A stretch of 64,000 bases of DNA from an uncultured Bacillota bacterium. Its GTDB lineage: Bacteria; Bacillota_I; Bacilli_A; RFN20; CAG-826. The notes below the pieces were generated by a model. It saw nothing but the letters and a program-made list of their open reading frames with translations, was not told the origin of the DNA and did not search any database. Within the stretch, counting starts at the first letter, position 1. The number at the start of each line of letters is the position of its first letter. Made by a program: the position numbers and the translations under genes. Location: positions 140-64,139 of the forward strand of contig CALEHV010000035.1 of the NCBI GenBank assembly GCA_937876465.1. The letters run 5' to 3'. This document shows, piece after piece, positions 9,997 to 57,753 of this stretch.

Positions 9997-11701
9997 GAAA
10001 ATGCTTCTTGCACTTAGTGCAACATTACTCCTTACTGGCTGTGATGCAATTGAAATCAAACCAGTAAACTATAACGATCCAGTCGTTGTTGACAATCAAG
10101 ACGTTAAAGTTGATGTCTACGACAATATTATGGGTGTCCTTTATGATTCGATCTCTTCAAACAAAAAAGATGATGTTCTCCAAAACTTCATGAACATTAT
10201 CGCTGAAGAAACTTTCGGTAAATGGTCTGAAATCGTTGAACTTGTTACAGCTGATGATGATGCAAAAATTAAGACATTCATTGAAGCTCACAAGAAAGCA
10301 TATATTCACGACAACAAAGTCACCAAAGAAGATGGCACAGAAGTTGCAGAAGACGAATATTTAGCAGCACAATTTGAAACTACAGTTGATGCTATTAGAA
10401 AAGACAGATTAATTAACTTCTTTAACAATGTTAAAGATCAAATCAACGAAGTCTTCTATAACGAAATCATTTCTAAATCATACAATGATGATACTGGAAA
10501 ATTCTATGAATACAGATTAGCTGTTGGTCACGCACGTGAAATGTACGACATCCTTATGGATTTAGATGGTCAAGAATGGTATGAAGGATATGTCACACCA
10601 GATCTTAAGAAAGATGACGTTTCATCATTAATCCACTTAGATGGAAGATATGATGATTACATCAACAGACACATCATTCGTTCTGTTTATAAAGATAAAC
10701 TCGTCGAAGATTATCTCTTAAAGAACAACTATTCTACACTTGGACGTGCATACGGACGTAAAGTTAATTATATTAAATTAACACGTGACGATAAGTTCAA
10801 AGAACTTCCAACAAAACTCATGGAAGCATATGCAACAACATATGTTGATACTGGCAAAATCGGAGATGGAGAAGGCGAAATGACCTTTGATTCTCTTGCA
10901 AACTGCTGGAGAGGATTCCGTGGTCTTAAAGCCGACGGAACAGTCGAAGAATTAAGCGCAGATGAAAAGGCATTACTTGCCGCTTCAAACGCTACACCAT
11001 CAAACCCAATTACAATTGAAGGAGTTTGTACTAACCTCGTTTATTACAAAGAAACTCAATTTGGTCAAATGATGGATAAATACAACTTAATTGATGAAAA
11101 TAACAGATTCGCTTCTGAAGAAGCAGCTTCTGCTTTATCAGAATTCACAAATAGCTTTGCCTACACAAAGGAAAAAGGTTTAAAGATTAAACTTGCTTCC
11201 CTTGCATTAACAGACTACACAACCGATGGTTGGTTCGTTAAAAATGGTGGCTTAACAGAATTACCAGAAGCATTAAGAAATCGTTTATTCAACATTAACG
11301 TTGCTAAAGAATTAGATGACGCTGAATACGTTTATGAATCATCAAGCTACACAAGAAAAGTTCAAGGTAACTACTTTGTTACACCTTCAACATCTGAAGT
11401 TGGCGATAATCATAACTACATCAATTATATTGATGGAAGCTTCTATTTAGTTCAAGTTGGAGAAGCTGTCTCAACATCAAAACTTAGCATCACAGGTAAG
11501 AATTCTTACGTTGCTGCTAAGAAGGGTGGAGAAGCATTATTCACCGAAGAAATTGCTCGTCATTTAGCTGAGACACTTGGTACAAAAGATTCATACATTA
11601 ACAATGCTTATGCATCATATATCAAGGAATGCTCACTCACATACCACGACACAGCAATTCTTGATTACTTCAAAGAAAAATATCCAGAACTCTTTGAATA
11701 A
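9974..11701 (+). CDS. lipoprotein of unknown function
   Basis: GGAGGAG at 9961-9967 followed by the ATG at 9974. The product starts MTTRSVAKKMLLALSATLLLTGC (lipobox). The gene overlaps the upstream lipoprotein gene by 23 nt. Confidence 0.7.
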   Translation: MTTRSVAKKMLLALSATLLLTGCDAIEIKPVNYNDPVVVDNQDVKVDVYDNIMGVLYDSISSNKKDDVLQNFMNIIAEETFGKWSEIVELVTADDDAKIKTFIEAHKKAYIHDNKVTKEDGTEVAEDEYLAAQFETTVDAIRKDRLINFFNNVKDQINEVFYNEIISKSYNDDTGKFYEYRLAVGHAREMYDILMDLDGQEWYEGYVTPDLKKDDVSSLIHLDGRYDDYINRHIIRSVYKDKLVEDYLLKNNYSTLGRAYGRKVNYIKLTRDDKFKELPTKLMEAYATTYVDTGKIGDGEGEMTFDSLANCWRGFRGLKADGTVEELSADEKALLAASNATPSNPITIEGVCTNLVYYKETQFGQMMDKYNLIDENNRFASEEAASALSEFTNSFAYTKEKGLKIKLASLALTDYTTDGWFVKNGGLTELPEALRNRLFNINVAKELDDAEYVYESSSYTRKVQGNYFVTPSTSEVGDNHNYINYIDGSFYLVQVGEAVSTSKLSITGKNSYVAAKKGGEALFTEEIARHLAETLGTKDSYINNAYASYIKECSLTYHDTAILDYFKEKYPELFE

Positions 11702-11716
11702 TTGAAAAATTTAATT

Positions 11717-11747
11717 GGAGGGTGGACTATCCATCCTCCTTTTATTT
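11717..11747 (+). terminator. rho-independent terminator
   Basis: GGAGGGTGG actat CCATCCTCC forms a 9-bp stem and is followed by TTTTATTT. Confidence 0.8.
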
Positions 11748-11836
11748 ATAATGGAACTATCTCATTAACAAATAAGTTAATCTAATCACATACTGGTTAG
11801 ATTTTCTTTTTATCTAATTAAGTATAATTGTTTTAT

Positions 11837-11986
11837 GCCGTTATCCTGCTAAATAGAAATACAGCTTTGACTGTCGGACTTCATACTCAGGCATACGGCT
11901 TTTCTTTTATTCGCTAATAGGTTGATTAACACTAGACGTTCTAACAGATAATTCGATAAGAAAAGCTGATATGGATCAATGACGGC
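11837..11986 (+). ncRNA. candidate bridge RNA (structured non-coding left end of the IS110 element)
   Basis: Nested long-range helices. GCCGTTATCC (11837-11846) pairs with GGAT[caat]GACGGC (11973-11986). CAGCTTT (11862-11868) pairs with AAAGCTG (11962-11968). The structure sits between the element boundary and the transposase RBS. Confidence 0.4.
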
Positions 11987-12001
11987 GAAAGGAGGAACGT
12001 T

Positions 12002-13213
12002 GTGTTTTTTAACGTAGGAATCGATGTTAGCAAGTACAAGCATGCAATCGCAATCATCGATGATGAAGGGGAAGTTAGAAAGAAAAGTTTCGATATTTCT
12101 AACACTCGTGAAGGGTTTAATTCTCTCTTAAATGAATTAGGCCTGCTCGGCCCAAAAGAGCAAATAAAAATAGGGATGGAAGCAACAGGGCATTATATGA
12201 CTTGTCTGTCTAAATTCCTGGTAGCAAATGGCTACAAAGTACAAATTTACAATCCGTTTATTGTTGAAAGATTTCGCGAGTCTGAAACAAATAAAGGAAG
12301 TAAAACTGACAAGAAAGATGCTTATCTAATTGCTAGATTTGTGATGACTCACCAATTTTCTGCATCCCCGCAATTATCTTACTACATTGAACAACTTCGT
12401 AAAATGTCTAGAGCAAAGTATTTTTTCTATGCTGACAAAATTCGAGCATATAACCATTTGCAAAGATATCTTGATGAAATATTTCCTGAACTATTACCAT
12501 TTTTAGATAGAAAAAGAGATGGAACCAAAGGTTCACGCGGTAGAAATATTCTTGATTCAAAGACAACAAGATGGCTTCTTTCGAATTATCCATCAGCAAC
12601 AAAAATTGCAAATATGAGAAAAGAAACCGCAGAAAAATTAAAAAGGATGTCGCATGGGAAAATAAGTTATATTCGTTTTGAAGAACTTAAAGACCTTGCT
12701 AAAAATTCGATTGGAATTTCAACAGCTGAAGATGAGCAAATAGTAAAATCTCTGATTATCCAAATAGAGGCTATTGACGAAGAAATTGATGAATTTGAAA
12801 ATCAAATTGATCAAATAATGAATCGAATACTATCACCAATAACTTCTATTCCTGGAATTGGCAATCAATTAGGAGCTATGATTCTAGGAGAAATAGGAGA
12901 CATTAAAAGATTTGACAATCCTGAAAAATTAATTAGATATGCAGGTTTGGATGTCAGAATTTATCAATCGGGAACAATTAACCAGCGAGGAAAAATTGTT
13001 AAAAGAGGATCACCGATTTTGCGTTATGCATTAGCGCTTACAATTCAAAAACTTAGAATTCATTCTCCAGTGTTTTCTGAGTACTACTATTCAAAAATTC
13101 GCGAAGGAAAACATACACAAGTTGCAATTATTGCTACAACAAGAAAGCTAATTCGAGTTATTTGGAAAATGCTTTACGACAATGTAGTTTTTGAAAACTT
13201 GGCTAAGAATTAA
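12002..13213 (+). CDS. IS110-family DEDD transposase/recombinase
   Basis: 403-aa ORF with a GTG start preceded by AGGAGG. The N-terminus VGIDVSKYKH...MEATGHY is RuvC-like DEDD, and the C-terminus SIPGIGNQLGAMILGEIGD is a Transposase_20-like HhH region. Confidence 0.92.
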   Translation: MFFNVGIDVSKYKHAIAIIDDEGEVRKKSFDISNTREGFNSLLNELGLLGPKEQIKIGMEATGHYMTCLSKFLVANGYKVQIYNPFIVERFRESETNKGSKTDKKDAYLIARFVMTHQFSASPQLSYYIEQLRKMSRAKYFFYADKIRAYNHLQRYLDEIFPELLPFLDRKRDGTKGSRGRNILDSKTTRWLLSNYPSATKIANMRKETAEKLKRMSHGKISYIRFEELKDLAKNSIGISTAEDEQIVKSLIIQIEAIDEEIDEFENQIDQIMNRILSPITSIPGIGNQLGAMILGEIGDIKRFDNPEKLIRYAGLDVRIYQSGTINQRGKIVKRGSPILRYALALTIQKLRIHSPVFSEYYYSKIREGKHTQVAIIATTRKLIRVIWKMLYDNVVFENLAKN

Positions 13214-13305
13214 AAGAAACATTAATTTTTAGAATTTTGAAAAAGGCAGAGCCTTTGGGTTGTTTTATGCTACACTTTTATAAAAATTTATAAGATAATA
13301 GTTGT

Positions 13306-13728
13306 ATGAAAAAAGAAGATTGTATATTTTGCAAAATTGCCGCAGGAGAAATTCCTTCAAGCAAAGTCTATGAAGACGATGATGTAATGGCCTTTTTGGA
13401 TATTTCACAAACCACAATTGGACATACATTAGTTATTCCTAAACAACACTATGATAACTTTTTAGTTATCCCAAAGGATCTAATGCATAAAGTTATGGAC
13501 GTTGCTCAACGTATTGGACAGGCTCAAATAGCCATCTTAAATGCTAAAGGTGTAAATATATTAAGCAACGTTAATAAAGAGGCTGGACAGAGCGTTTATC
13601 ACTTCCATGTGCATGTTATTCCACGATATGGCAAGGATGAAGGATTCGAAATTGAGATGAAAGGCAATCCAAAGGCCGAAGAATTGTCACTTCCTGCATT
13701 AGCAGAACAAATTAAAAAAGGATTATAA
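13306..13728 (+). CDS. hit: HIT-family (histidine triad) nucleotide hydrolase
   Basis: 140-aa ORF with the HFHVHVIP triad and an N-terminal CIFCKI zinc motif. Confidence 0.9.
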   Translation: MKKEDCIFCKIAAGEIPSSKVYEDDDVMAFLDISQTTIGHTLVIPKQHYDNFLVIPKDLMHKVMDVAQRIGQAQIAILNAKGVNILSNVNKEAGQSVYHFHVHVIPRYGKDEGFEIEMKGNPKAEELSLPALAEQIKKGL

Positions 13729-13736
13729 AAAAGAAA

Positions 13737-13766
13737 ATACTTCCAATCTAACGGAAGTATTTTTTC
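13737..13766. terminator. bidirectional terminator between hit and gpsA
   Basis: ATACTTCC aatctaac GGAAGTAT, flanked by an A-run on one side and a T-run on the other. Confidence 0.7.
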
Positions 13767-14749
13767 TATTCACTTATTAATTCTCTGCCGACTAGAGCGT
13801 TGACTGCATCAACAGGTTTTAAGCCATTAAATACAATATCGTATACGCCTTTAATAATTGGCATCTCAACATTCGTTTTTAGGGCAAGTTGTTTTGCTGC
13901 TTTCAAACAGTTAATACCTTCAACAACCATTCCTACTTGTTCAAGAGTTTCTTTTAGTGGCACTCCTGAACCAAGAAGAGCACCCGCATTATGGTTACGA
14001 GAATGTTTTGAAGTAGCAGTAACAACAATATCGCCAATGCCAGCTAATCCGGAGAATGTTCTCTCGCTACATCCTAAGGCCATACCAAGTCTTGAAATCT
14101 CAACAAGGCCACGTGTAATAATTGCTGCCTTTGCATTGTCACCATAGCCTAAACCATCAGACATACCTGCTGCTAAAGCAATAATGTTTTTAAATGCAGC
14201 TGCAAGTTCAACACCTTTGGTGTCTCCATTTACATAAATTCTGAAATAAGGAAGTGATAATTGTTGTTGCACAATCTTTGCAACTTTCTTATTTTCGCTA
14301 GCAGCAACTATAGTTGTTGGGAGTCCAATCGAAACTTCCTCAGCATGTGTTGGGCCAGATAATACAACAACATCAAAATTCATTCCTAAAACATCATTAA
14401 TAACTTCTGACATTGTTAATAATGTATCTTCTTCAATACCTTTAGCGACATCAACAATAATTTGTTTATCGTTTAAATATGGCTTTGCTAACATTGCAGT
14501 TTCTCTTACAAAAGGAGAAGGAACTGCAAAAACAACAATATCCTTATCTTTGCATGCTTCTTCTATAGAAGCTGTGAATTTGATTTTATCTGAAAGAACA
14601 GCACCAGGAAGATTTTTATGTCTTCTGGTTTTGGACATTGCGTCTACTTCTTCTTGAAATCTAGACCAAACTGTAACTTCATGCTTAACAATAAAAGCAT
14701 TAGCTAAAGCTGTTCCCCAAGTACCTGCGCCTATAATTGAAATCTTCAT
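13766..14749 (-). CDS. gpsA: NAD(P)H-dependent glycerol-3-phosphate dehydrogenase
   Basis: 327-aa ORF with the N-terminal motif MKISIIGAGTWGTALA and a full-length GpsA-like sequence. Confidence 0.93.
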   Translation of the reverse strand: MKISIIGAGTWGTALANAFIVKHEVTVWSRFQEEVDAMSKTRRHKNLPGAVLSDKIKFTASIEEACKDKDIVVFAVPSPFVRETAMLAKPYLNDKQIIVDVAKGIEEDTLLTMSEVINDVLGMNFDVVVLSGPTHAEEVSIGLPTTIVAASENKKVAKIVQQQLSLPYFRIYVNGDTKGVELAAAFKNIIALAAGMSDGLGYGDNAKAAIITRGLVEISRLGMALGCSERTFSGLAGIGDIVVTATSKHSRNHNAGALLGSGVPLKETLEQVGMVVEGINCLKAAKQLALKTNVEMPIIKGVYDIVFNGLKPVDAVNALVGRELISE

Positions 14750-33362: not shown

Positions 33363-33826
33363 AAATCCCTACCCATATTTTTCTTTGCTTTATCCATCAT
33401 GCGTTTGTCATCTCTTTCCTTCATGACTTCACGCTTATCAAATTTCTTTTTACCTTTACCTAAAGCAATTTCAACTTTAGCTTTACCACGATTAAGATAA
33501 ACTTTTGTTGGAATAATTTGTAGAGCTTTTTCTTGAGCTTTTCTTTCTAATTTAAACAATTCTTTTTTATGTAATAAAAGTTTACGTGTTCTATTTGGCT
33601 CGTGGTTAAAAATATTTCCAGATTCATATTGAGCAATGTGCATGTTTAAAATAAAAGCTTCTCCATTACGAATTAGAACGTAAGCATCATTTAATGTTGC
33701 ACCATTTTTACGTAAGGATTTAATTTCAGTACCTTTTAGTTCGATTCCACATTCAATGAAGTCGTCTAAGAAGTAGTTGAAGTACGCTTTTGAATTTTTA
33801 ACTAAAATCTTATTATGATTTTCCAT
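33359..33826 (-). CDS. smpB: SsrA-binding protein SmpB
   Basis: The product MENHNKILVKNSKAYFNYFLDDFIECGIELKGTEIKSLR... is typical SmpB. The track ORF start at 33877 is an over-extension. Confidence 0.92.
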   Translation of the reverse strand: MENHNKILVKNSKAYFNYFLDDFIECGIELKGTEIKSLRKNGATLNDAYVLIRNGEAFILNMHIAQYESGNIFNHEPNRTRKLLLHKKELFKLERKAQEKALQIIPTKVYLNRGKAKVEIALGKGKKKFDKREVMKERDDKRMMDKAKKNMGRDL

Positions 33827-34245
33827 GCAATTGATTATAAATGAAAAACAATAAAAAAAATATTGTTTTATAAACATTCTAAAATTAGCAGATTTCTCAA
33901 AAACAATTTAGATAGAATTTTTTAATTAATAAATGTAGTTATGTAATTATTGCAACTATAATTTTGTTTTTTCATTTTTAAAGAATTAACAGAAACAAAT
34001 TATAAAGAACTATATCAAAACCAATATTTGATTATTTTTAAAACGACAACCTTAGTCAAAATTTAGGCATATCGTTAAAATAAAAAAATCCCTTAGATTA
34101 AAATCGAATTAAACATTTAAGCTCTTATTTAATTATAGCGATACAAAATATTTAAAATAAAAACTTTCTGATATGACTTTTCGACAAGCATAATAAAGAA
34201 AATTTATAAAAACTTAATAGATGATTAAAAAAATCAATCATCATG

Positions 34246-34707: not shown

Positions 34708-37700
34708 TTAAGCTTGATAATTCCATACGACCGGTCTATCACTAGTATTCCAAATTGAACTCCATCCACTAGGTTGAGACGAACTTTCACAAAAAATAGA
34801 AAGAGAATTACAAATACGAAAAGCATCGTCACCAATAAAAATGACTCCTTCAGGAATATATATTGAAGTCAAGGAAGAACAACCAGAAAAAGCACCATGG
34901 CCAATTGAAGTCAAACTTTTTGGAATACTTATTAAAATGAGCGCCGAAGCAGCAAAAGCTTCGTCACCAATAGAAACTACTCCTTCAGGAATATATATTG
35001 AAGTCAAGGAAGAACAACCAGAAAAAGCTCTTGAACCAATCGATATAATTGTATTTGGAATATTAACTGAAATAATTGAATCACAATAGTAAAAGGCGTA
35101 ATCTGCAATAGCTATAACTGACATTCCGTCAATTTGAGAAGGAATATTTATTTCAGTTATGGTATTATCTGCTAAAGACGCGACAACAAGGTTTCCATCT
35201 TTTGTAACCCCATAATTAATTCCATCTTTTGTAAAATGGCTCATACAGTTCCAAACAACTGGTCTCCAACTATTCCAAAATGAACCCCATCCACTTGGTT
35301 TTGATTTGATTTCACAATATATTGTCACTTCACTGTTTGGTGTAATGTATTCCCCGATCGAAGTTACGGTATCTGGGATACTGATTGAAATAAGAGAGAC
35401 GGAATTTTTGAAAGCGTACTCGTTTATTGCAGTGACTGGTTTTCCATTGACATGAGATGGAATATTTATTTCAGTTATGGTGTTATCTGCTAAAGACACG
35501 ACAACAAGATTTCCATCTTTTGTAACCCCATAATTAATTCCATCTTTTATAAAATGGCTCATACAGTTCCAAACAACCGGCCTAAAATCTGTATACCACC
35601 CACTTGGTTTAGACTTACTTTCGCAGATAATATGAAGAAAAGGACAATTATCAAAAACATCAGAACCAATAGAAGTAATAGAAGACGGAATAAAAATTAA
35701 AGTTAAAGATTTCGAATCTTTGAAAGCACCTCCCGCTATGGAAACGACAGGCATTCCGTCAATTTGAGAAGGAATATTTATTTCAGTTAAAGTTTTGTCT
35801 GCCAATGATACAAGTACTATATTTCCATCTTTTGTAACCACATAATTAATTCCATCTTTTGTAAAATGGCTCATACAGTTCCAAACAACCGGAGTAGATA
35901 AAGATTTCCAATTTGTATCCCACCCACCTGGTTTAGACGAACTTTCACAACAAATAGAAAGAGAATTACAAGAAAGAAAAGCATCGTCACCAATAAAAAT
36001 GACACCTTCAGGAATATATATTGAAGTCAAGGAAGAACAATCATAAAAAGCACTATTTCCAATAGATGTGACAGAATTAGGGATATTGATGGAAGTTAAA
36101 GAAGAACAATGATAAAAAGCTTTATCTCCAATAGATGTGACAGAATTAGGGATATTGATGGAAGTTAAAGAAGAACAATGACAAAAAGCACTATTTCCAA
36201 TAGATGTGACAGAATTAGGGATATTGATGGAAGTTAAAGAAGAACAATGATAAAAAGCTTTATCTCCAATAGATGTGACAGAATTAGGGATATTGATGGA
36301 AGTTAAAGAAGAACAATGATAAAAAGCATTCTGCGCTATGGAAACAACAGGCATTCCATCAATTTGAGAAGGAATGTCTATGTCTGCTAAAGTTTTGTCT
36401 ATCAACACCGCAACTACAAGATTTCCATCATTTGTAGCGCCATAATTAATGCCGTTTTTTGTAAAGTAGCCCATACAGTTCCATATTATTTTACCGTTAA
36501 AATGCCAGGTAGTTGGTTTTGATGCTATCTCACAGTAAATAGTAAGAGATGTGCAGCCTTCGAAAACATCTGAACTTATGCTAGAGGTTACACTATTTGG
36601 AATATAAATCGAAGATAAAGAAGAACAATGTTTAAAAGCACTATTTCCAATAGATGTGACAGAATTAGGGATATTGATGGAAACAAGGGAACTGCAACCC
36701 AAAAAAGCCTCACTGCCGATCGAAATAACGGAAGATGGGATTTCAATCGAAACCAATGACGAGCAATTAGAAAAAGTAGCATAGTATACATACTGAATCC
36801 CATAAGGTATATTAATTGAGACAAGGGAAGAACATCTAGAAAAAGCGCCCCAACTTATGAAACTAACGCTGTTAGGAATATTGATGGTGGTAAGGGATAT
36901 ACATTCACAGAAAGTAGATGCTTCTATTTTTGCGATTTTCTCAGGTAGCCTAACCGAAATAAGGGAAGAACACCCATAAAAAGCATCGTCGCCGATTGTA
37001 ACCACACTATCTGGGATTTCAATAGATCTAAGTGATGAACAACAATAAAAAGCATATTGTTGTATTGAAGTAATAGTGTTTTCTATTTTTATTGAAGTAA
37101 GAACATTATCACGCGAGAACGCATGAACACCAATCGAAGCTATTTTTCTACCACTGTAGTATGATGGAATATACGCAAAACAAAAATTATTTCCACTTTT
37201 TTTGTACAAATCATATTCGTTATCAATCAAAGTAAAATCATATTTTCCATCTAAATATTCATCATCATCCCTTAGTTTGTATCGTGCTGTTAATATTTTG
37301 CTAGCTTCGGAATATTCCCAAGAATTTCCTTTGGTAGGAATAACTTTCCCATCAAGGAGCCAACAATCAAAGACATATTCCCAATCTATTTCTTTTTTAG
37401 CTGTTGTAGGAACAGGAAGTTCGTAAGGGCTTTTAAATGTAATCGTCATCAATGTTGTATCACAAGTACCATCACCAGCATCAAAACTATAAACGTTTGA
37501 ATTACTAGACCATTTTGCAGTTAAAGTCAGGTCGTTTGGAATTGTCCATGTTGCTTTATTACTATACTTTACATCATCTTTAAACCATCCCAAAAATGTT
37601 GAATTATATTTCATTGGAATTGGTAACTCATATGCGCAATTGTAGACAACTTTTACGCTTTTTATATCACACTCTCCGCCATTAGCTTTAAGCGTTACAG

Positions 37701-44480: not shown

Positions 44481-44606
44481 AATTTTACCTCCGAATTTTA
44501 TAGCAAAATTTTTACAGTATTTTCTTTACACCATTATATATGCACATACGAGCGGACACAATAAATCATTTAATATTTTATTTAAAAATAAATATAATAA
44601 TTACGT

Positions 44607-45881
44607 ATGAAAGCAGTAATAATGGCAGGCGGCCAAGGAACCAGACTTGGCAATTTAGTTAGAGAAGTACCTAAACCAATGGTTAAGGTAAATAACAAAG
44701 CAATTTTGGAAAGACAAATTGAAACTTTAGTTTCATGTGGAGTCACCGAAATAACTTTAGTTATTGGTTATTTAGGAGATGTTATTAAACAATATTTCCA
44801 AGATGGGAAAAAGTTTAATGTTAGCATCGACTATATTGAAGAAACTTCTCCAATGGGTTCTGCAGGTTCTCTGTTCTATTTAAAAGATAAATTTGATGAT
44901 GATTTTGTCCTACTTTTTGGTGACTTAATTGAGTCTGTTGATTTCAATAAAATGATGGAATTTCATAAGCAAAATAATGCCTTAATAACTCTGCTTTCTC
45001 ACCCTAATATGCACCCATTCGATTCAGACCTAATTATCGTAGATAAAAATAACGTCGTTTTAGGTATGGATTCGAAGCACAATATTCGTAATTATTTTTA
45101 CCATAATTTAGTTAACGCAGGCATCTATATTTTGAGCCCAAAATCTCTTGAATATTTTACTGAAATTCGTAAACAAGATATGGAAAAAGACTTTATTAAA
45201 AGTCTAATTCCATCAAATCGTGTATACTCATACTGCTCAAGCGAGTATGTAAAAGACGCAGGAACTTTAGAAAGATTAGAGGCGGTTGGAAACGACATCA
45301 AAAACGGCCTTGTCGAAGCTAAAAATATTCGCCATAAACAAAAGGCAATTTTCCTTGATCGTGATGGCACAATTAACACCCTTGTTGGGCACTTAGATGA
45401 CATCAATAAATTTGAGTTAATTGACGGGGTTGCAGAAGCAATCAAAAAGATTAATGCTTCAGGTTATCTTGCAATAGTCATTACAAACCAACCAGTTGTC
45501 GCTCGTGGAGCCTTAACTTTAGAAGGTTTGGAAGAAGTTCATAAGAAAATGGAAACACTTCTTGGAAACGAAGGCGCATTCCTAGACGCAATTTATTTCT
45601 GTCCTCACTATCCAGAGAGTGGCTTCCCTGGCGAAGTTAAAGAATTAAAAATTGAATGTGACTGCCGCAAACCAAAAATCGGAATGCTATTAAAAGCTCA
45701 ATCTCGTTTTAACATTGACTTTAGTCAATCTTGGTTCGTTGGAGATGCAGATTTAGATATTGAATGTGGTCAAAATGCAGGCACAAAAACTGTTTTAATT
45801 AAAAGCGAAAAGGTCTGCAAATCAAAGCCAGACTACACTGTAAATTCCTTGCTTGAAGCTGTTGAACTTATCACAAAATAA
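44607..45881 (+). CDS. bifunctional sugar-1-phosphate nucleotidyltransferase (HddC-like) / D,D-heptose 1,7-bisphosphate phosphatase (GmhB-like HAD-IIIA)
   Basis: The N-terminus MKAVIMAGGQGTRLG...PKPM is an NTP-transferase motif. The C-terminal half carries FLDRDGTIN, ITNQP, CPHYPE..CDCRKP and VGDADLD. Confidence 0.8.
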   Translation: MKAVIMAGGQGTRLGNLVREVPKPMVKVNNKAILERQIETLVSCGVTEITLVIGYLGDVIKQYFQDGKKFNVSIDYIEETSPMGSAGSLFYLKDKFDDDFVLLFGDLIESVDFNKMMEFHKQNNALITLLSHPNMHPFDSDLIIVDKNNVVLGMDSKHNIRNYFYHNLVNAGIYILSPKSLEYFTEIRKQDMEKDFIKSLIPSNRVYSYCSSEYVKDAGTLERLEAVGNDIKNGLVEAKNIRHKQKAIFLDRDGTINTLVGHLDDINKFELIDGVAEAIKKINASGYLAIVITNQPVVARGALTLEGLEEVHKKMETLLGNEGAFLDAIYFCPHYPESGFPGEVKELKIECDCRKPKIGMLLKAQSRFNIDFSQSWFVGDADLDIECGQNAGTKTVLIKSEKVCKSKPDYTVNSLLEAVELITK

Positions 45882-56482: not shown

Positions 56483-56565
56483 AACTATTGTTTAGTTTAC
56501 TCTATTTATGTTTCTTATATCAAAAAAAATAATCGTAATTAAAAATTTGTATTACAATTGTAGCC

Positions 56566-57753
56566 ATGAATTTCGTATTTATTTCGCCTAACTTTCCATC
56601 AATATACTCACATTTCGTAAAAGCTCTAAACGAAAGGGGTTTGAAAGTTTTAGGTATTGGAGACAATCCTTATGAATGTCTAAATGATGAGTTAAAACAA
56701 AACTTAGCAGAATATTGCTATGTTTCAAATTTAGGTAATCTTCAATGGATGAAAAACACATTAGATTACTTAGAAAGTAAACATGGCCATATTGACTATA
56801 TCGAATCCAATAATGAATTCTGGTTATTCTCTGACAGTTATTTAAGAGAATATAAAGGAGTTCAAAACGGCTTCCTTCCATCCGAAATGGATAAGATCAA
56901 ATACAAATCTCAAATGAAGCAATATTTCGAAGAAGCAAAGGTCAAAACCGCTCGTTGGATTATTGCAGATTCTTTCGAAAAAGTAATTGATTTTGTAAAC
57001 AAAGTTGGTTATCCAGTGTTTGCTAAACCAGATAACGGGGTAGGCGCTGCATGCACATATAAAATTAATAATAAAAAAGATGTTAAAAACTTCTTTGCAA
57101 CTAAGCCTAACGAAATCTACATTATGGAAGAATTCATTCAAGGCGAGATCATCTCATTCGATGGAATTGTTGATGACGAGTCTAATCCAGTTCTAGCATT
57201 CAACGAAACATTCCCAACTCCAATTGCAGAAATTGTTAATAAAGATTTAGATGTTTATTACTACGCTAATATGGACATGCCTGAAGAATTTAGAAAAATG
57301 GGTGAACGTGTTGTAAAAGCATTTAAGATTAGAAAACGTTGTTTCCATATTGAATTCTTCAAGTTAACTGAAGATAGACCAGGATTAGCTAAAAAAGGTG
57401 AAATACTTGGCCTTGAAGTTAATATGCGTTCTCCTGGAGGAGACACTCCTGACTTATTATGTATTGCATTTAATGATTCATATTATGAAGCCTACGGAGA
57501 CGTAATCGCATATAACAAAGTTAATAAAGATTTAAATAAGAAACACTACATTGCAATCTCGGTTGCTAAAAAGAATAGATTCTCCTATAAACATCAACAC
57601 AATGAGATTGAATCAAATTATAAAGACCATATTGTTAAACACGGTTTCTATGATCCTGCAATCTCAAAAGCAATGGGCAACGAATTCTATTTAGCTAAAT
57701 TTGAAAACCTTGATGAAGCATTAAAATTCAAAGACTTTATTTTAGAAAAATAA
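56566..57753 (+). CDS. ATP-grasp domain protein (carboxylate-amine ligase type)
   Basis: 395 aa. YPVFAKPDNGVGAACTYKI, IMEEFIQGEI and GLEVNMRSPGG match the ATP-grasp layout. Confidence 0.7.
   Translation: MNFVFISPNFPSIYSHFVKALNERGLKVLGIGDNPYECLNDELKQNLAEYCYVSNLGNLQWMKNTLDYLESKHGHIDYIESNNEFWLFSDSYLREYKGVQNGFLPSEMDKIKYKSQMKQYFEEAKVKTARWIIADSFEKVIDFVNKVGYPVFAKPDNGVGAACTYKINNKKDVKNFFATKPNEIYIMEEFIQGEIISFDGIVDDESNPVLAFNETFPTPIAEIVNKDLDVYYYANMDMPEEFRKMGERVVKAFKIRKRCFHIEFFKLTEDRPGLAKKGEILGLEVNMRSPGGDTPDLLCIAFNDSYYEAYGDVIAYNKVNKDLNKKHYIAISVAKKNRFSYKHQHNEIESNYKDHIVKHGFYDPAISKAMGNEFYLAKFENLDEALKFKDFILEK

What the first reader, a model, noticed from the sequence alone, without database searches (positions are those of the whole stretch)
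11837..11986. The structured 150-nt leader of the IS110 element is a candidate bridge RNA
The non-coding left end, between the element boundary and the transposase RBS, folds on paper into nested long-range helices.

- GCCGTTATCC (11837-11846) pairs with GGAT[caat]GACGGC (11973-11986).
- CAGCTTT (11862-11868) pairs with AAAGCTG (11962-11968).
- These enclose an asymmetric internal loop (15 nt at 11847-11861 versus 4 nt at 11969-11972) and a 93-nt interior.
- The interior holds a 9/11 same-sense near-copy of the flanking repeat (TTcTTTTATtC, 11902-11912).
- It also holds GGCATA (11890-11895), complementary to TATGCC at the left junction (11834-11839).

Work on IS621 in 2024 established that IS110-group recombinases are guided by an element-encoded bridge RNA in exactly this position, whose internal loops pair with target and donor DNA. 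This particular RNA, its guides and its target are undescribed. The guide assignments here are speculative.
Basis: partly seen in the sequence, partly recalled or inferred. Interest (0 to 1): 0.75.

Follow-up and report, generated by a model that had tools for sequence, protein, structure and literature searches.

The report
Bridge RNA of a promoter-homing IS110

Summary
Most of the details do not.

- **Boundaries.** A related contig with the same neighbouring genes and no IS (L164) sets the element at 11761-13307 (1547 bp). The 11-bp "flanking repeat" lies inside the element, is absent from relatives, and has about a 2% chance of arising at random.
- **Structure.** The RNA has two stem-loops, each with a large internal loop: a target-binding loop (11837-11899) and a donor-binding loop (11900-11964). 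Across 49 homologues, 96% of cells pair and 20 of 28 pairs show compensatory change.
- **Target guides.** The 5' side of loop 1 is a same-sense copy of the left flank. The 3' side is the reverse complement of the right flank. Both track their own flanks across loci (z 5-8, p≤5e-5).
- **Donor guides.** Loop 2 matches the element ends, and the matching letters change together between lineages.
- **Target class.** All 42 left flanks carry a TAnnnT -10 box 5-10 nt before an ATG, and 37 of 44 of those ATGs open long host ORFs. The right end supplies GATAAT-N6-ATG.

It is a new member of a known kind. Expression and activity are untested, and this copy's right donor guide mismatches its own left end.

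The parts
11717..11752 (+). Host context. Terminator hairpin of the upstream gene (11717-11739), then the host promoter TGGACT-18-TATAAT (-10 box at 11747-11752). Before insertion this promoter served the HIT gene.
   Evidence: Promoter and terminator scan, (10 of 12 promoter match). The same sequence is present in the empty site L164.
11747..11760 (+). Left target (LT): TATAATGGAACTA plus T. The TAT at 11758-60 also occurs at the right junction, so the crossover dinucleotide is TA or AT.
   Evidence: Empty-site comparison. Match to the left target guide is 8 of 13.
11761..13307 (+). The IS110-group insertion sequence, 1547 bp. It has no terminal inverted repeats and no duplication beyond the shared TAT.
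   Evidence: Limits of conservation among relatives. The empty site L164 reads TATAAT-TGAGTT-ATGAAAAAAG.
11758..11765 (+). Right donor (RD): core plus the start of the left end, TATCTCAT. The right donor guide expects TATCTGTT, so only 5 contiguous nt match in this copy.
   Evidence: Relatives match over 7-8 nt, in three types that change together with the guide.
11781..11802 (+). 5' stem-loop (UCUAAUC...GGUUAGA) followed by a U-tract at 11803-11815. It is either the 5' stem-loop of the bridge RNA, as in IS621, or a terminator that blocks read-in from the host promoter.
   Evidence: Fold z-score -2.76. Seven pairs are conserved in 12 relatives, and the only changes are to G:U. Group 2 has a stem here with compensatory changes.
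11823..11828 (+). Internal TATAAT. It is invariant in group 1, and group 2 has TGGTAAAAT at the same place. It may be an internal -10 box giving a transcript that starts near 11835.
   Evidence: Alignments. No good -35 box was called. Function is inferred.
11837..11899 (+). Target-binding loop (TBL) stem-loop. It has an outer stem (11837-41 with 11895-99), a middle stem (11845-48 with 11888-91) and an inner hairpin (11861-74, ACAG-CUUUGA-CUGU).
   Evidence: RNAalifold on a sequence-only alignment predicts exactly these three helices. The single-sequence minimum-energy fold is the same. Helices 1-3 pair in 99.5-100% of cells with compensatory changes.
11849..11861 (+). Left target guide (LTG): CUAAAUAGAAAUA. 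Positions 1-6 are a constant copy of a -10 hexamer. Positions 7-11 are the variable, programmable part. Positions 12-13 are a constant UA. It is same-sense to the left flank, so it would pair with the bottom strand.
   Evidence: Permutation tests give z 5.2 in register and 8.0 with an offset allowed, both p≤5e-5. The per-position signal lies at positions 7-11 and is strongest at 8-10. There are 22 variants among 23 close relatives. Three of the 8 differences from L161 fall in these 5 nt (p=4e-4).
11875..11887 (+). Loop carrying the right target guide (RTG). The guide core ACUUCAUA (11878-85) is the reverse complement of TATGAAGT. The target reads TATGAAAA, so 6 contiguous nt match.
   Evidence: The three nt next to CAU track the second codon of the gene on the element's own right flank: z 5.1, p≤5e-5.
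11900..11964 (+). Donor-binding loop (DBL) stem-loop. It has an outer stem (11900-08 with 11956-64), a CG:CG step (11912-13 with 11954-55) and an inner hairpin (11928-40).
   Evidence: Helices 4-6. An alignment-free check gives an end-closing helix of median 9 bp in 36 variants, against 2.5 bp in shuffles, with different sequences in each lineage.
11914..11927 (+). Left donor guide (LDG) loop: CUAAUAGGUUGAUU. It is same-sense to the right-end terminus TAATAGTTGTAT. The match is discontinuous (TAATAG, then GTTG).
   Evidence: The pairs AAUAGGUUG/AATAGTTG (group 1), UUGUAGG/TTGTAGG (group 2) and CAGUUGA/AGTTGA (L027) change together.
11941..11953 (+). Right donor guide (RDG) loop: CUAACAGAUAAUU. 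Its core AACAGAUA (11943-50) is the reverse complement of TATCTGTT.
   Evidence: The pairs AACAG/CTGTT, UGCAG/CTGCA (L026) and UGAG/CTCA (group 2) change together.
11982..11986 (+). Tail ACGGC, just before the RBS (AAGGAGGA, 11989-96). It can pair with the 5' strand of the outer stem of the first loop (11837-41), so it offers an alternative, mutually exclusive helix.
   Evidence: Complementary pairs are kept in group 1, L020, L021, L022, L098 and L027, with different sequences. The pairing is lost in the main group 2 lineage.
12002..13213 (+). IS110-family recombinase, 403 aa, GTG start. The DEDD residues and the Ser of the Tnp domain fall in invariant columns.
   Evidence: Pfam PF01548 1.8e-37 and PF02371 4.2e-21. 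NCBIfam NF033542, 237.5 bits. PDB matches to ISCro4 (5.8e-21) and IS621 (1.2e-18). Invariant D8, E60, D103, D106 and S323.
13242..13269 (+). Terminator of the recombinase gene: hairpin at 13242-56 followed by a GGGTTGTTTT tract.
13294..13307 (+). Terminus of the right end: GATAAT-AGTTG-TAT. It mimics a -10 box placed 6 nt before the host ATG, and it contains the left donor (LD).
   Evidence: GATAAT[AT]GT[TA]G...ATG is kept at the right end in all clades, down to 39% protein identity. Promoter function is inferred.
13305..13314 (+). Right target (RT): TATGAAAAAA. The ATG at 13306-08 is the start codon of the HIT-family gene (13306-13728).
   Evidence: Pfam HIT 1.9e-27.

Best explanation
Window 11837-11967 (+ strand) encodes an IS110-group bridge RNA. 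It belongs to a 1547-bp insertion sequence spanning 11761-13307.

**Anatomy.** The RNA has two stem-loops, each with a large internal loop.
- In the first (target-binding) loop, the 5' strand is the left target guide (LTG, 11849-61). It repeats the left flank in the same sense, so it would pair with the bottom strand. It holds a fixed copy of a -10 promoter hexamer, about 5 variable nt, and then UA.
- The 3' strand of that loop is the right target guide (RTG, 11878-85). It is complementary to the top strand across TATG plus the next 3-4 nt.
- In the second (donor-binding) loop, the two strands match the terminus of the right end (AATAGTTG) and the start of the left end (TATCTGTT) in the same way.

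**Proposed mechanism.** Bound to the DEDD/Tnp recombinase, the RNA would bring the joined right-end/left-end junction of the excised circle together with a target of the form TAnAAT-N6-ATG-NNN. It would then direct strand exchange at the shared TAT.

**Target and consequence.** The targets are promoters of leaderless genes. After insertion, the host promoter faces the left end, and the right end's own GATAAT-N6 sits in front of the host ATG.

**Shown versus inferred.** The structure, the guide/flank and guide/end covariation, the boundaries and the target class are shown. Transcription, recombinase binding, recombination and the promoter swap are inferred by analogy with IS621.
For: **Recombinase.** The protein belongs to the IS110 RNA-guided transposase family and is homologous to IS621 and ISCro4.

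**Boundaries.** They follow from conservation among relatives and from an empty site.

**Structure.**
- RNAalifold on a sequence-only alignment predicts the three helices of the first loop.
- A covariance model finds 49 homologues.
- In those, 96.4% of cells pair and 20 of 28 pairs show compensatory change. No shuffle of 500 reaches this, and slid controls give 37-51%.
- An alignment-free check supports the second loop's stem.

**Variation pattern.** Among close relatives, differences concentrate in the target guides. There are 22 LTG variants among 23 sequences, while other columns are 96% conserved.

**Guides track their own flanks.**
- LTG versus own left flank: z 5.2 in register and 8.0 with offset, p≤5e-5.
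- RTG versus own right flank: z 5.1, p≤5e-5.

**Donor guides.** They change together with the element ends in three or more lineages.

**Target class.**
- All 42 left flanks carry TAnnnT 5-10 nt before the ATG.
- Of 44 informative cases, 37 ATGs open long ORFs.
- A host promoter is called at 11723-52.

**Agreement with IS621.** The strand sense and loop order match the rules reported for IS621 (PMC11208160).
Against: - There is no expression or activity data.
- Single-sequence folding energies are not significant: z -1.6 for the first loop, -0.8 for the second, +0.45 for both together.
- The pair counts were made on an alignment fitted to the model. Many compensatory cells trace back to one split between group 1 and group 2.
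- In this copy the LTG matches its flank at only 8 of 13 positions.
- In this copy the RDG matches its own left end over only 5 contiguous nt, against 7-8 in relatives. The copy may be impaired.
- In about half the loci the LTG match is displaced by 1-4 nt relative to the junction. The IS621 model does not predict this.
- The LDG does not cover the core in a simple way.
- The 5' end of the RNA is undetermined.
Confidence: 0.82

Rival explanations
1. The element runs from about 11839 to 13259 and is flanked by the 11-bp repeat TTGTTTTATGC. The leader folds into nested long-range helices (11837-46 with 11973-86, and 11862-68 with 11962-68). TTcTTTTATtC and GGCATA act as guides.
For: The strings are present as stated. 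The minimum-energy fold of 11837-11986 contains the terminal helix. The GCCGU/ACGGC part recurs in other lineages.
Against: - Conservation and an empty site place the ends at 11761 and 13307.
- The repeat is absent from relatives and arises by chance about 2% of the time.
- The helices pair in 50.9% of cells, which is shuffle level.
- The proposed guides are stem strands in the covarying structure.
Confidence: 0.03
2. The structured region is only a cis-acting 5' leader that controls recombinase translation or transcription. One example would be a switch between the 5' strand pairing locally or with the tail next to the RBS. It would have no guide function.
For: It lies directly upstream of the RBS. 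Two mutually exclusive, covarying partners exist for the 5' strand, one of them adjacent to the RBS. A terminator-like hairpin lies upstream.
Against: A pure leader gives no reason for loop letters to follow the flanking host DNA of each insertion, or to follow the element's own ends. Nor does it explain why variation among near-identical copies concentrates in 5 nt of one loop. A regulatory role could still exist alongside the guide role.
Confidence: 0.05
3. The RNA family is a bridge RNA, but this copy is a decaying, immobile insertion. Its guides no longer match its own donor end or its target.
For: - The RDG (AACAGAUA) faces the left end TATCTCAT, with 2 mismatches. All relatives match over 7-8 nt.
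- The LTG matches its flank at 8 of 13 positions.
- The recombinase uses a GTG start where L161 has ATG.
- There is a single copy in 64 kb.
Against: - The recombinase ORF is intact, with all catalytic columns conserved.
- All bridge-RNA stems are intact, and the model scores 149 bits.
- A 96%-identical relative carries a different LTG, which implies recent activity in the lineage.
- The site is polymorphic: an empty allele exists at about 2% flank divergence.
Confidence: 0.3
4. The resemblance between the loop and the flanks is compositional. Both are AT-rich and promoter-like, and the TAWAAT in the loop is simply an internal -10 box rather than a guide.
For: LTG positions 1-6 and 12-13 are nearly constant, as are the flanks at those positions. 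They therefore carry no pairing-specific information.
Against: Permutation keeps the composition and the shared motifs, yet own-flank matches exceed all 20,000 permutations. The signal sits at the variable positions 7-11 (strongest at 8-10) and at the 3 nt beside CAU. There are long exact matches, such as 11 of 11 in L033 and 12 of 13 in L092, L029 and L096 (and by eye).
Confidence: 0.03

Closest known systems
IS621 bridge RNA (Durrant et al. 2024, PMC11208160; Hiraizumi et al. 2024, PMC11208158)
   Same: - It is encoded in the left end, upstream of an IS110-group DEDD/Tnp recombinase.
- The target-binding loop comes first and the donor-binding loop second.
[quoted passage not shown] - Target guides vary while donor guides are conserved.
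- One donor match is discontinuous.
- A 5' stem-loop lies upstream.
   Different: - The recombinase is only distantly related (E 1e-18; 403 versus 328 aa in the solved chain).
- The LTG spans 13 nt, 6 of them a fixed -10-like hexamer. PMC11208160 reports stretches of 8-9 nt.
- The shared junction sequence is TAT rather than a CT core.
- The target is a promoter plus start codon rather than a REP element.
- The -10 box that would read across the circle junction lies wholly in the right end. IS621 has its -35 box in the right end; and my own reading, its -10 box lies at the start of the left end.
- In about half the loci the LTG match is offset by 1-4 nt.
ISEc21 seekRNA (IS110 type; Siddiquee et al. 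2024, PMC11187229)
   Same: An RNA derived from the upstream non-coding region is required for circle formation and for targeted insertion without duplication. Short matches to both strands of the target are present. A promoter forms at the circle junction.
   Different: The target is different: a conserved coding segment of IS3-family transposases. No sequence similarity was tested here.
IS900/IS901/IS902/IS116 group of IS110-family elements (from memory; not verified in the library)
   Same: These elements are reported to insert in one orientation, next to the translation-initiation signals of host genes, between the RBS and the start codon.
   Different: Those targets carry a Shine-Dalgarno sequence. 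Here the target is a -10 box plus a leaderless ATG, and the element carries its own -10 mimic.
Junction and outward promoters of mobile elements (Pjunc of ISEc11 and IS492; Pout of group IIC-attC introns, PMC3001079)
   Same: A promoter at or near an element end reads outward, or across the circle junction.
   Different: Here the right-end -10 box is placed so that the host ATG falls where a leaderless transcript would start. This would restore the geometry of the promoter that the insertion displaced. That role is inferred.

Membership tests
IS110-group bridge RNA (IS621 type) | Encoded in the non-coding left end, upstream of an IS110-group DEDD/Tnp recombinase, on the same strand | tested here: met
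   The bridge RNA lies at 11837-11967 and the ORF at 12002-13213.
IS110-group bridge RNA (IS621 type) | Two consecutive stem-loops, each with a large internal loop, conserved and supported by compensatory change | tested here: met
   96.4% of cells pair and 20 of 28 pairs show change on both sides. Caveat: the alignment was fitted to the model and the number of independent lineages is small.
IS110-group bridge RNA (IS621 type) | In the first loop, the 5' side is same-sense to the left target and the 3' side is complementary to the right target, and both vary with the insertion site | tested here: met
   (z 5.2, 8.0 and 5.1; p≤5e-5). In the window copy the LTG matches 8 of 13 positions and the RTG matches 6 contiguous nt.
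IS110-group bridge RNA (IS621 type) | The second loop matches the terminus of the right end (left donor) and the start of the left end (right donor) | tested here: met
   The match holds across relatives, with at least three types that change together. In the window copy the LDG matches, but the RDG matches over only 5 contiguous nt.
IS110-group bridge RNA (IS621 type) | A core dinucleotide shared by target and donor and covered by all four guides | tested here: inconclusive
   TAT is shared at both junctions. The LTG ends in UA and the RTG and RDG cover UAU/AUA. The LDG reads AUU or AU where UA(U) is expected. TA and AT cannot be told apart.
IS110-group bridge RNA (IS621 type) | Transcribed as a discrete RNA that binds the recombinase and is required for recombination | not testable with these tools
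   No transcript or biochemical data. Candidate promoters are the host -10 box at 11747-52, or the right-end -10 box in the circle, and the internal TATAAT at 11823-28.
IS110-group bridge RNA (IS621 type) | Match to published bridge-RNA covariance models | not testable with these tools
   Rfam 15 gives no relevant hit. It also gives none on the IS621 left end itself, so it holds no bridge-RNA family.
IS110 family insertion sequence | DEDD (RuvC-like) domain plus Tnp domain with its catalytic Ser. No terminal inverted repeats. Site-specific insertion without target duplication. | tested here: met
   Comparison with the empty site shows only the shared TAT. Target motif TAnnnT-N5-10-ATG in 42 of 42 loci.

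The most novel reading that the evidence does not exclude
This IS110 clade has hard-wired its bridge RNA to promoters. Its left target guide carries a fixed copy of the -10 hexamer, and its right target guide reads the start codon. The element therefore homes to the promoters of leaderless genes and swaps promoters with them. The host promoter then drives the element's RNA. The right end's built-in GATAAT-N6 restores leaderless expression of the host gene, which would make insertions nearly neutral. The guide may also tolerate 1-4 unpaired DNA bases between its duplex and the crossover. That would be a register flexibility not described for IS621.
Probability: 0.4. Interest if true: 0.75.

Novelty: new member of a known kind. 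Interest (0 to 1): 0.5.

Why it matters
Bridge RNAs are programmable guides for DNA insertion, excision and inversion.

This one adds a natural example in an uncultured gut and rumen Bacilli lineage. Here the rules for guide and target can be read directly from dozens of independent insertions.

If the promoter-homing reading is right, it shows how an RNA-guided insertion sequence can choose a site that exists hundreds of times per genome without inactivating the gene it lands on. It also offers a long left guide (13 nt) and a different core as raw material for engineering.

For annotation, it shows that the ends of an IS110 element cannot be set from a short repeat. They need relatives or an empty site.

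Tried and rejected
- **Rfam scan of 11000-14000**. Only weak chance hits. A control on the IS621 left end shows that Rfam holds no bridge-RNA family, so the result is uninformative.
- **Plasmid collection**. No match.
- **Exact look-up of the window's recombinase**. Not on record.
- **Single-sequence thermodynamics**. Not significant and not used as evidence.
- **RNAalifold on sequence-only alignments of the second loop**. No pairs were predicted, because MAFFT shifts the 3' strand by one column between lineages. I replaced this with a covariance-model alignment and an alignment-free check.
- **The 11-bp repeat as a target duplication or boundary.** Rejected.
- **Fixing the core as TA or AT.** Left open.
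- **Literature searches** for IS110 or bridge RNA together with leaderless or start-codon targeting. Nothing was found in the held library. The IS900 precedent rests on memory.
- **Explaining the 1-4 nt offsets as remnants of a right end in the left flanks.** Only L005 fits clearly (TGTAGGTA), so this was not pursued.

Full report
**1.

All quoted strings are at the stated coordinates. The ORF at 12002-13213 is an IS110-family recombinase:
- Pfam DEDD_Tnp_IS110 at 1.8e-37 and Transposase_20 at 4.2e-21.
- NCBIfam "IS110 family RNA-guided transposase" at 237.5 bits against a cut-off of 140.
- Distant homology to the solved ISCro4 and IS621 recombinases.

Folding the leader alone does not beat chance. 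The z-score is -1.29 for 11837-11986 and -0.52 for 11820-12005. Any case for a structured RNA therefore has to come from comparison with relatives.

**2. Boundaries**

Protein searches found thousands of relatives. Scans of genomes and metagenomes returned 160 loci, mostly rumen and gut Bacilli or Erysipelotrichaceae assembled from metagenomes. Two closer copies came from exact look-ups: L161 at 96% and L162 at 84% protein identity.

- On the left it starts at TAT|CTGTTTAAC, which is window 11758-61.
- On the right it ends at GATAATAGTTGTATG, which is window 13294-13308.

A contig that carries the identical HIT protein and the same upstream gene, but no IS (L164), reads ...TTTATTTATAAT-TGAGTT-ATGAAAAAAGAAG. 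The element is therefore 11761-13307, or 1547 bp. TAT is present at both junctions and there is no other duplication.

Its left copy follows an internal TATAAT. Its right copy is the T-tract of the recombinase terminator. It is absent from L161 and L162. An 11-mer shared by the two non-coding ends arises in about 2% of shuffles.

**3. Structure**

*The first loop.* A sequence-only alignment of 48 upstream regions (A2) lets RNAalifold predict three nested helices:
- 11837-41 with 11895-99
- 11845-48 with 11888-91
- 11861-64 with 11871-74

Four of these pairs show compensatory change. The minimum-energy fold of 11837-11899 alone is the same structure.

*The second loop.* By analogy I drew a second stem-loop at 11900-11964. 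I built a covariance model from 23 close relatives and searched the loci. It found 49 hits, with the window at 149 bits.

On the resulting alignment:
- 96.4% of cells form standard pairs.
- 20 of 28 pairs have a change on both sides.
- No shuffle of 500 reaches the observed values.
- Sliding the partners by 1-3 columns drops pairing to 37-51%.

*Caveats.* That alignment is fitted to the model. Many compensatory cells derive from one split between "group 1" (about 65% identity) and "group 2" (about 50%).

*Independent check.* Each of 36 distinct second-loop segments closes its own ends with a helix of median 9 bp, against 2.5 bp in shuffles. The helix sequence differs between lineages: GCUUUUCUU/AAGAAAAGC, GCUUCCCUA/UAGGGAAGC, GCCUUUUCUU/GGGAGAAGGC and ACUUUCCA/UGGAAAGU.

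One part survives. The 5' strand GCCGU and the tail ACGGC (11982-86) stay complementary in group 1, L020, L021, L022, L098 and L027, with different sequences. This helix excludes the local closing helix of the first loop and sits beside the RBS. Its role is open.

**4. Guides and target**

*Where the variation lies.* Among the 23 close relatives the RNA is 92% identical overall. The 5' side of the first loop, however, has 22 different versions. L161 differs from the window at 8 of 200 left-end positions, and 3 of those fall in five loop nucleotides (p=4e-4).

*Left target guide.* I extracted loops and flanks for all loci. The 13 nt at 11849-61 (the left target guide, LTG) repeats, in the same sense, the 13 nt of host DNA that end at the junction. 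Own-flank identity is 301, against 260.5±7.8 for permuted pairings (z 5.2). It is 319 against 270.3±6.1 (z 8.0) when the flank may be offset by 0-5 nt. Both give p≤5e-5.

The signal breaks down by position as follows:
- Positions 7-11 carry the pairing-specific signal, strongest at 8-10 (z up to 4.0).
- Positions 1-6 are a nearly constant TAWAAT.
- Positions 12-13 are a constant UA.

*Right target guide.* The 3' side of the loop (the right target guide, RTG) ends in CAUA. The three nucleotides before CAU follow the second codon of the gene on the right (77 against 64.0±2.6, z 5.1, p≤5e-5). Examples are ATGTA/UACAU, ATGGAA/UUCCAU and ATGCAA/UUGCAU.

These are the strand rules reported for IS621. 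[quoted passage not shown] *In the window copy.* The LTG CUAAAUAGAAAUA faces TATAATGGAACTA (8 of 13). The RTG ACUUCAUA faces TATGAAAA (6 contiguous).

**5. Donor**

The second loop matches the element's ends, and loop and end change together.

| Lineage | Left donor guide / right-end terminus | Right donor guide / left-end start |
|---|---|---|
| Group 1 | AAUAGGUUG / AATAGTTG | AACAGAU / ATCTGTT |
| L026 | not separately distinct | UGCAGAUA / TATCTGCA |
| Group 2 | UUGUAGG / TTGTAGG | UGAGAUA / TATCTCA |
| L027 | CAGUUGA / AGTTGA | no clear match |

The left donor guide (LDG) match is discontinuous. IS621 shows a comparable discontinuity for one of its donor guides.

The window copy is odd. 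Its right donor guide (RDG) is of the group 1 type (AACAGAUA), but its left end begins TCTCATTAACAA. That is the group 2 sequence for the first 12 nt. Only 5 contiguous nt can pair.

**6. What is targeted**

- All 42 informative left flanks have TAnnnT, and 22 of them have TATAAT. The hexamer ends 5-10 nt before the ATG, with a mode of 6.
- In 37 of 44 informative loci the ATG opens a long ORF with a typical N-terminus, such as a signal peptide, a Rossmann motif or a P-loop motif.
- In the window the gene is a HIT-family protein. A host promoter TGGACT-18-TATAAT is called at 11723-52.
- No Shine-Dalgarno sequence fits between the -10 box and the ATG. These therefore look like leaderless genes.
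- The right end always finishes with GATAAT-(5-7 nt)-TAT. After insertion the host ATG is again preceded by a -10-like hexamer at the same distance.

I infer a promoter swap. The host promoter (or, in the circle, the right-end -10 box) reads into the left end, and the right-end -10 box serves the host gene.

Where the RNA starts is unresolved. One candidate is about 11760, which would include the conserved 5' hairpin at 11781-11802. That hairpin changes only to G:U, as expected for an RNA from this strand. Group 2 has a compensated stem at the same place. The other candidate is about 11835, downstream of the invariant internal TATAAT.

**7. Comparison and novelty**

Anatomy and pairing rules match the IS621 bridge RNA. 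Durrant et al. predicted bridge RNAs in 85.7% of IS110-group elements, so finding one here is expected. It is a new member of a known kind.

The following go beyond the published description:
- the long left guide with a fixed promoter hexamer
- the TAT junction
- the promoter and start-codon target
- the right-end promoter mimic
- the 1-4 nt register offsets in about half of the loci

I found no paper in the held library that links IS110 or bridge RNAs with leaderless targets. From memory, the IS900 group inserts between the RBS and the start codon, which is a partial precedent.

**8. Limits**

Nothing here shows transcription, protein binding or recombination. The number of independent lineages behind the covariation is small. 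The core dinucleotide is ambiguous. The window copy may be impaired in recognising its own donor end.

Noticed in passing
window 11753-11758, compared with L164 1948-1953: The 6 nt between the host -10 box and the junction differ at 3 of 6 positions between the occupied allele (GGAACT) and the empty allele (TGAGTT). The remaining 3417 nt of flank differ by 2% (Fisher p=1.7e-4). I have no explanation.
   Followed up: partly
related loci, e.g. L162 (flank ATAATTTTAC-GAAT-TA), L008, L016, L093: In 20 of 41 loci the best match of the left target guide to the flank is shifted 1-4 nt away from the junction. The shift tracks the distance between the -10 box and the ATG (6 nt in 20 loci, 7 in 11, 8 in 5, 9 in 2, 10 in 1). 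This implies either unpaired DNA between the guide duplex and the crossover, or changes after insertion.
   Followed up: partly
window 11761-11772: The left end starts TCTCATTAACAA, which is identical to group 2 elements. The rest of the left end and the right donor guide are of group 1 type (relatives have TCTGTTTAACAA). This may reflect gene conversion between co-resident elements, or decay.
   Followed up: partly
window 11837-41 / 11895-99 / 11982-86: The 5' strand GCCGU has two conserved and mutually exclusive partners: the local ACGGC and a second ACGGC just before the RBS. This could be a switch that couples bridge-RNA folding to recombinase translation.
   Followed up: partly
window 11865-70 and relatives; DBL inner hairpin at 11928-40: In group 1 the inner hairpins of both loops carry the same loop sequence, CUUUGA (G-CUUUGA-C). 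This could be a shared protein contact.
   Followed up: no
L005 741-760 (left flank of a group 1 element): The flank ends TATAATATGTAGGTA. Its last 8 nt equal the terminus of the group 2 right end (TGTAGGTA). It may be a remnant of an earlier occupant's promoter mimic.
   Followed up: no
window 44591-44609 (+), 33826-33841 (-), 56551-56568 (+): Other candidate leaderless starts in the window: TATAAT-N8-ATG, TATAAT-N7-ATG and TACAAT-N7-ATG, each opening a long ORF. These are potential further targets for this kind of element.
   Followed up: no
window 34721-36845: Three families of direct repeats (units of 195-300 nt, one with a 69-nt period). This looks like a repetitive coding region and is unrelated to the IS.
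   Followed up: no
L163 1778-2062 (E. coli IS621 copy): This IS621 left end carries a partial tandem duplication of its first 85 nt or so, including half of the target-binding loop.
   Followed up: no
L032, L034, L036, L039, L051, L102 and others (33-39% identity): A more distant clade has its own conserved left end that begins near CCTCGTATAAT, with a GC-rich two-loop RNA. Model R1 does not detect it. Its target was not examined.
   Followed up: no
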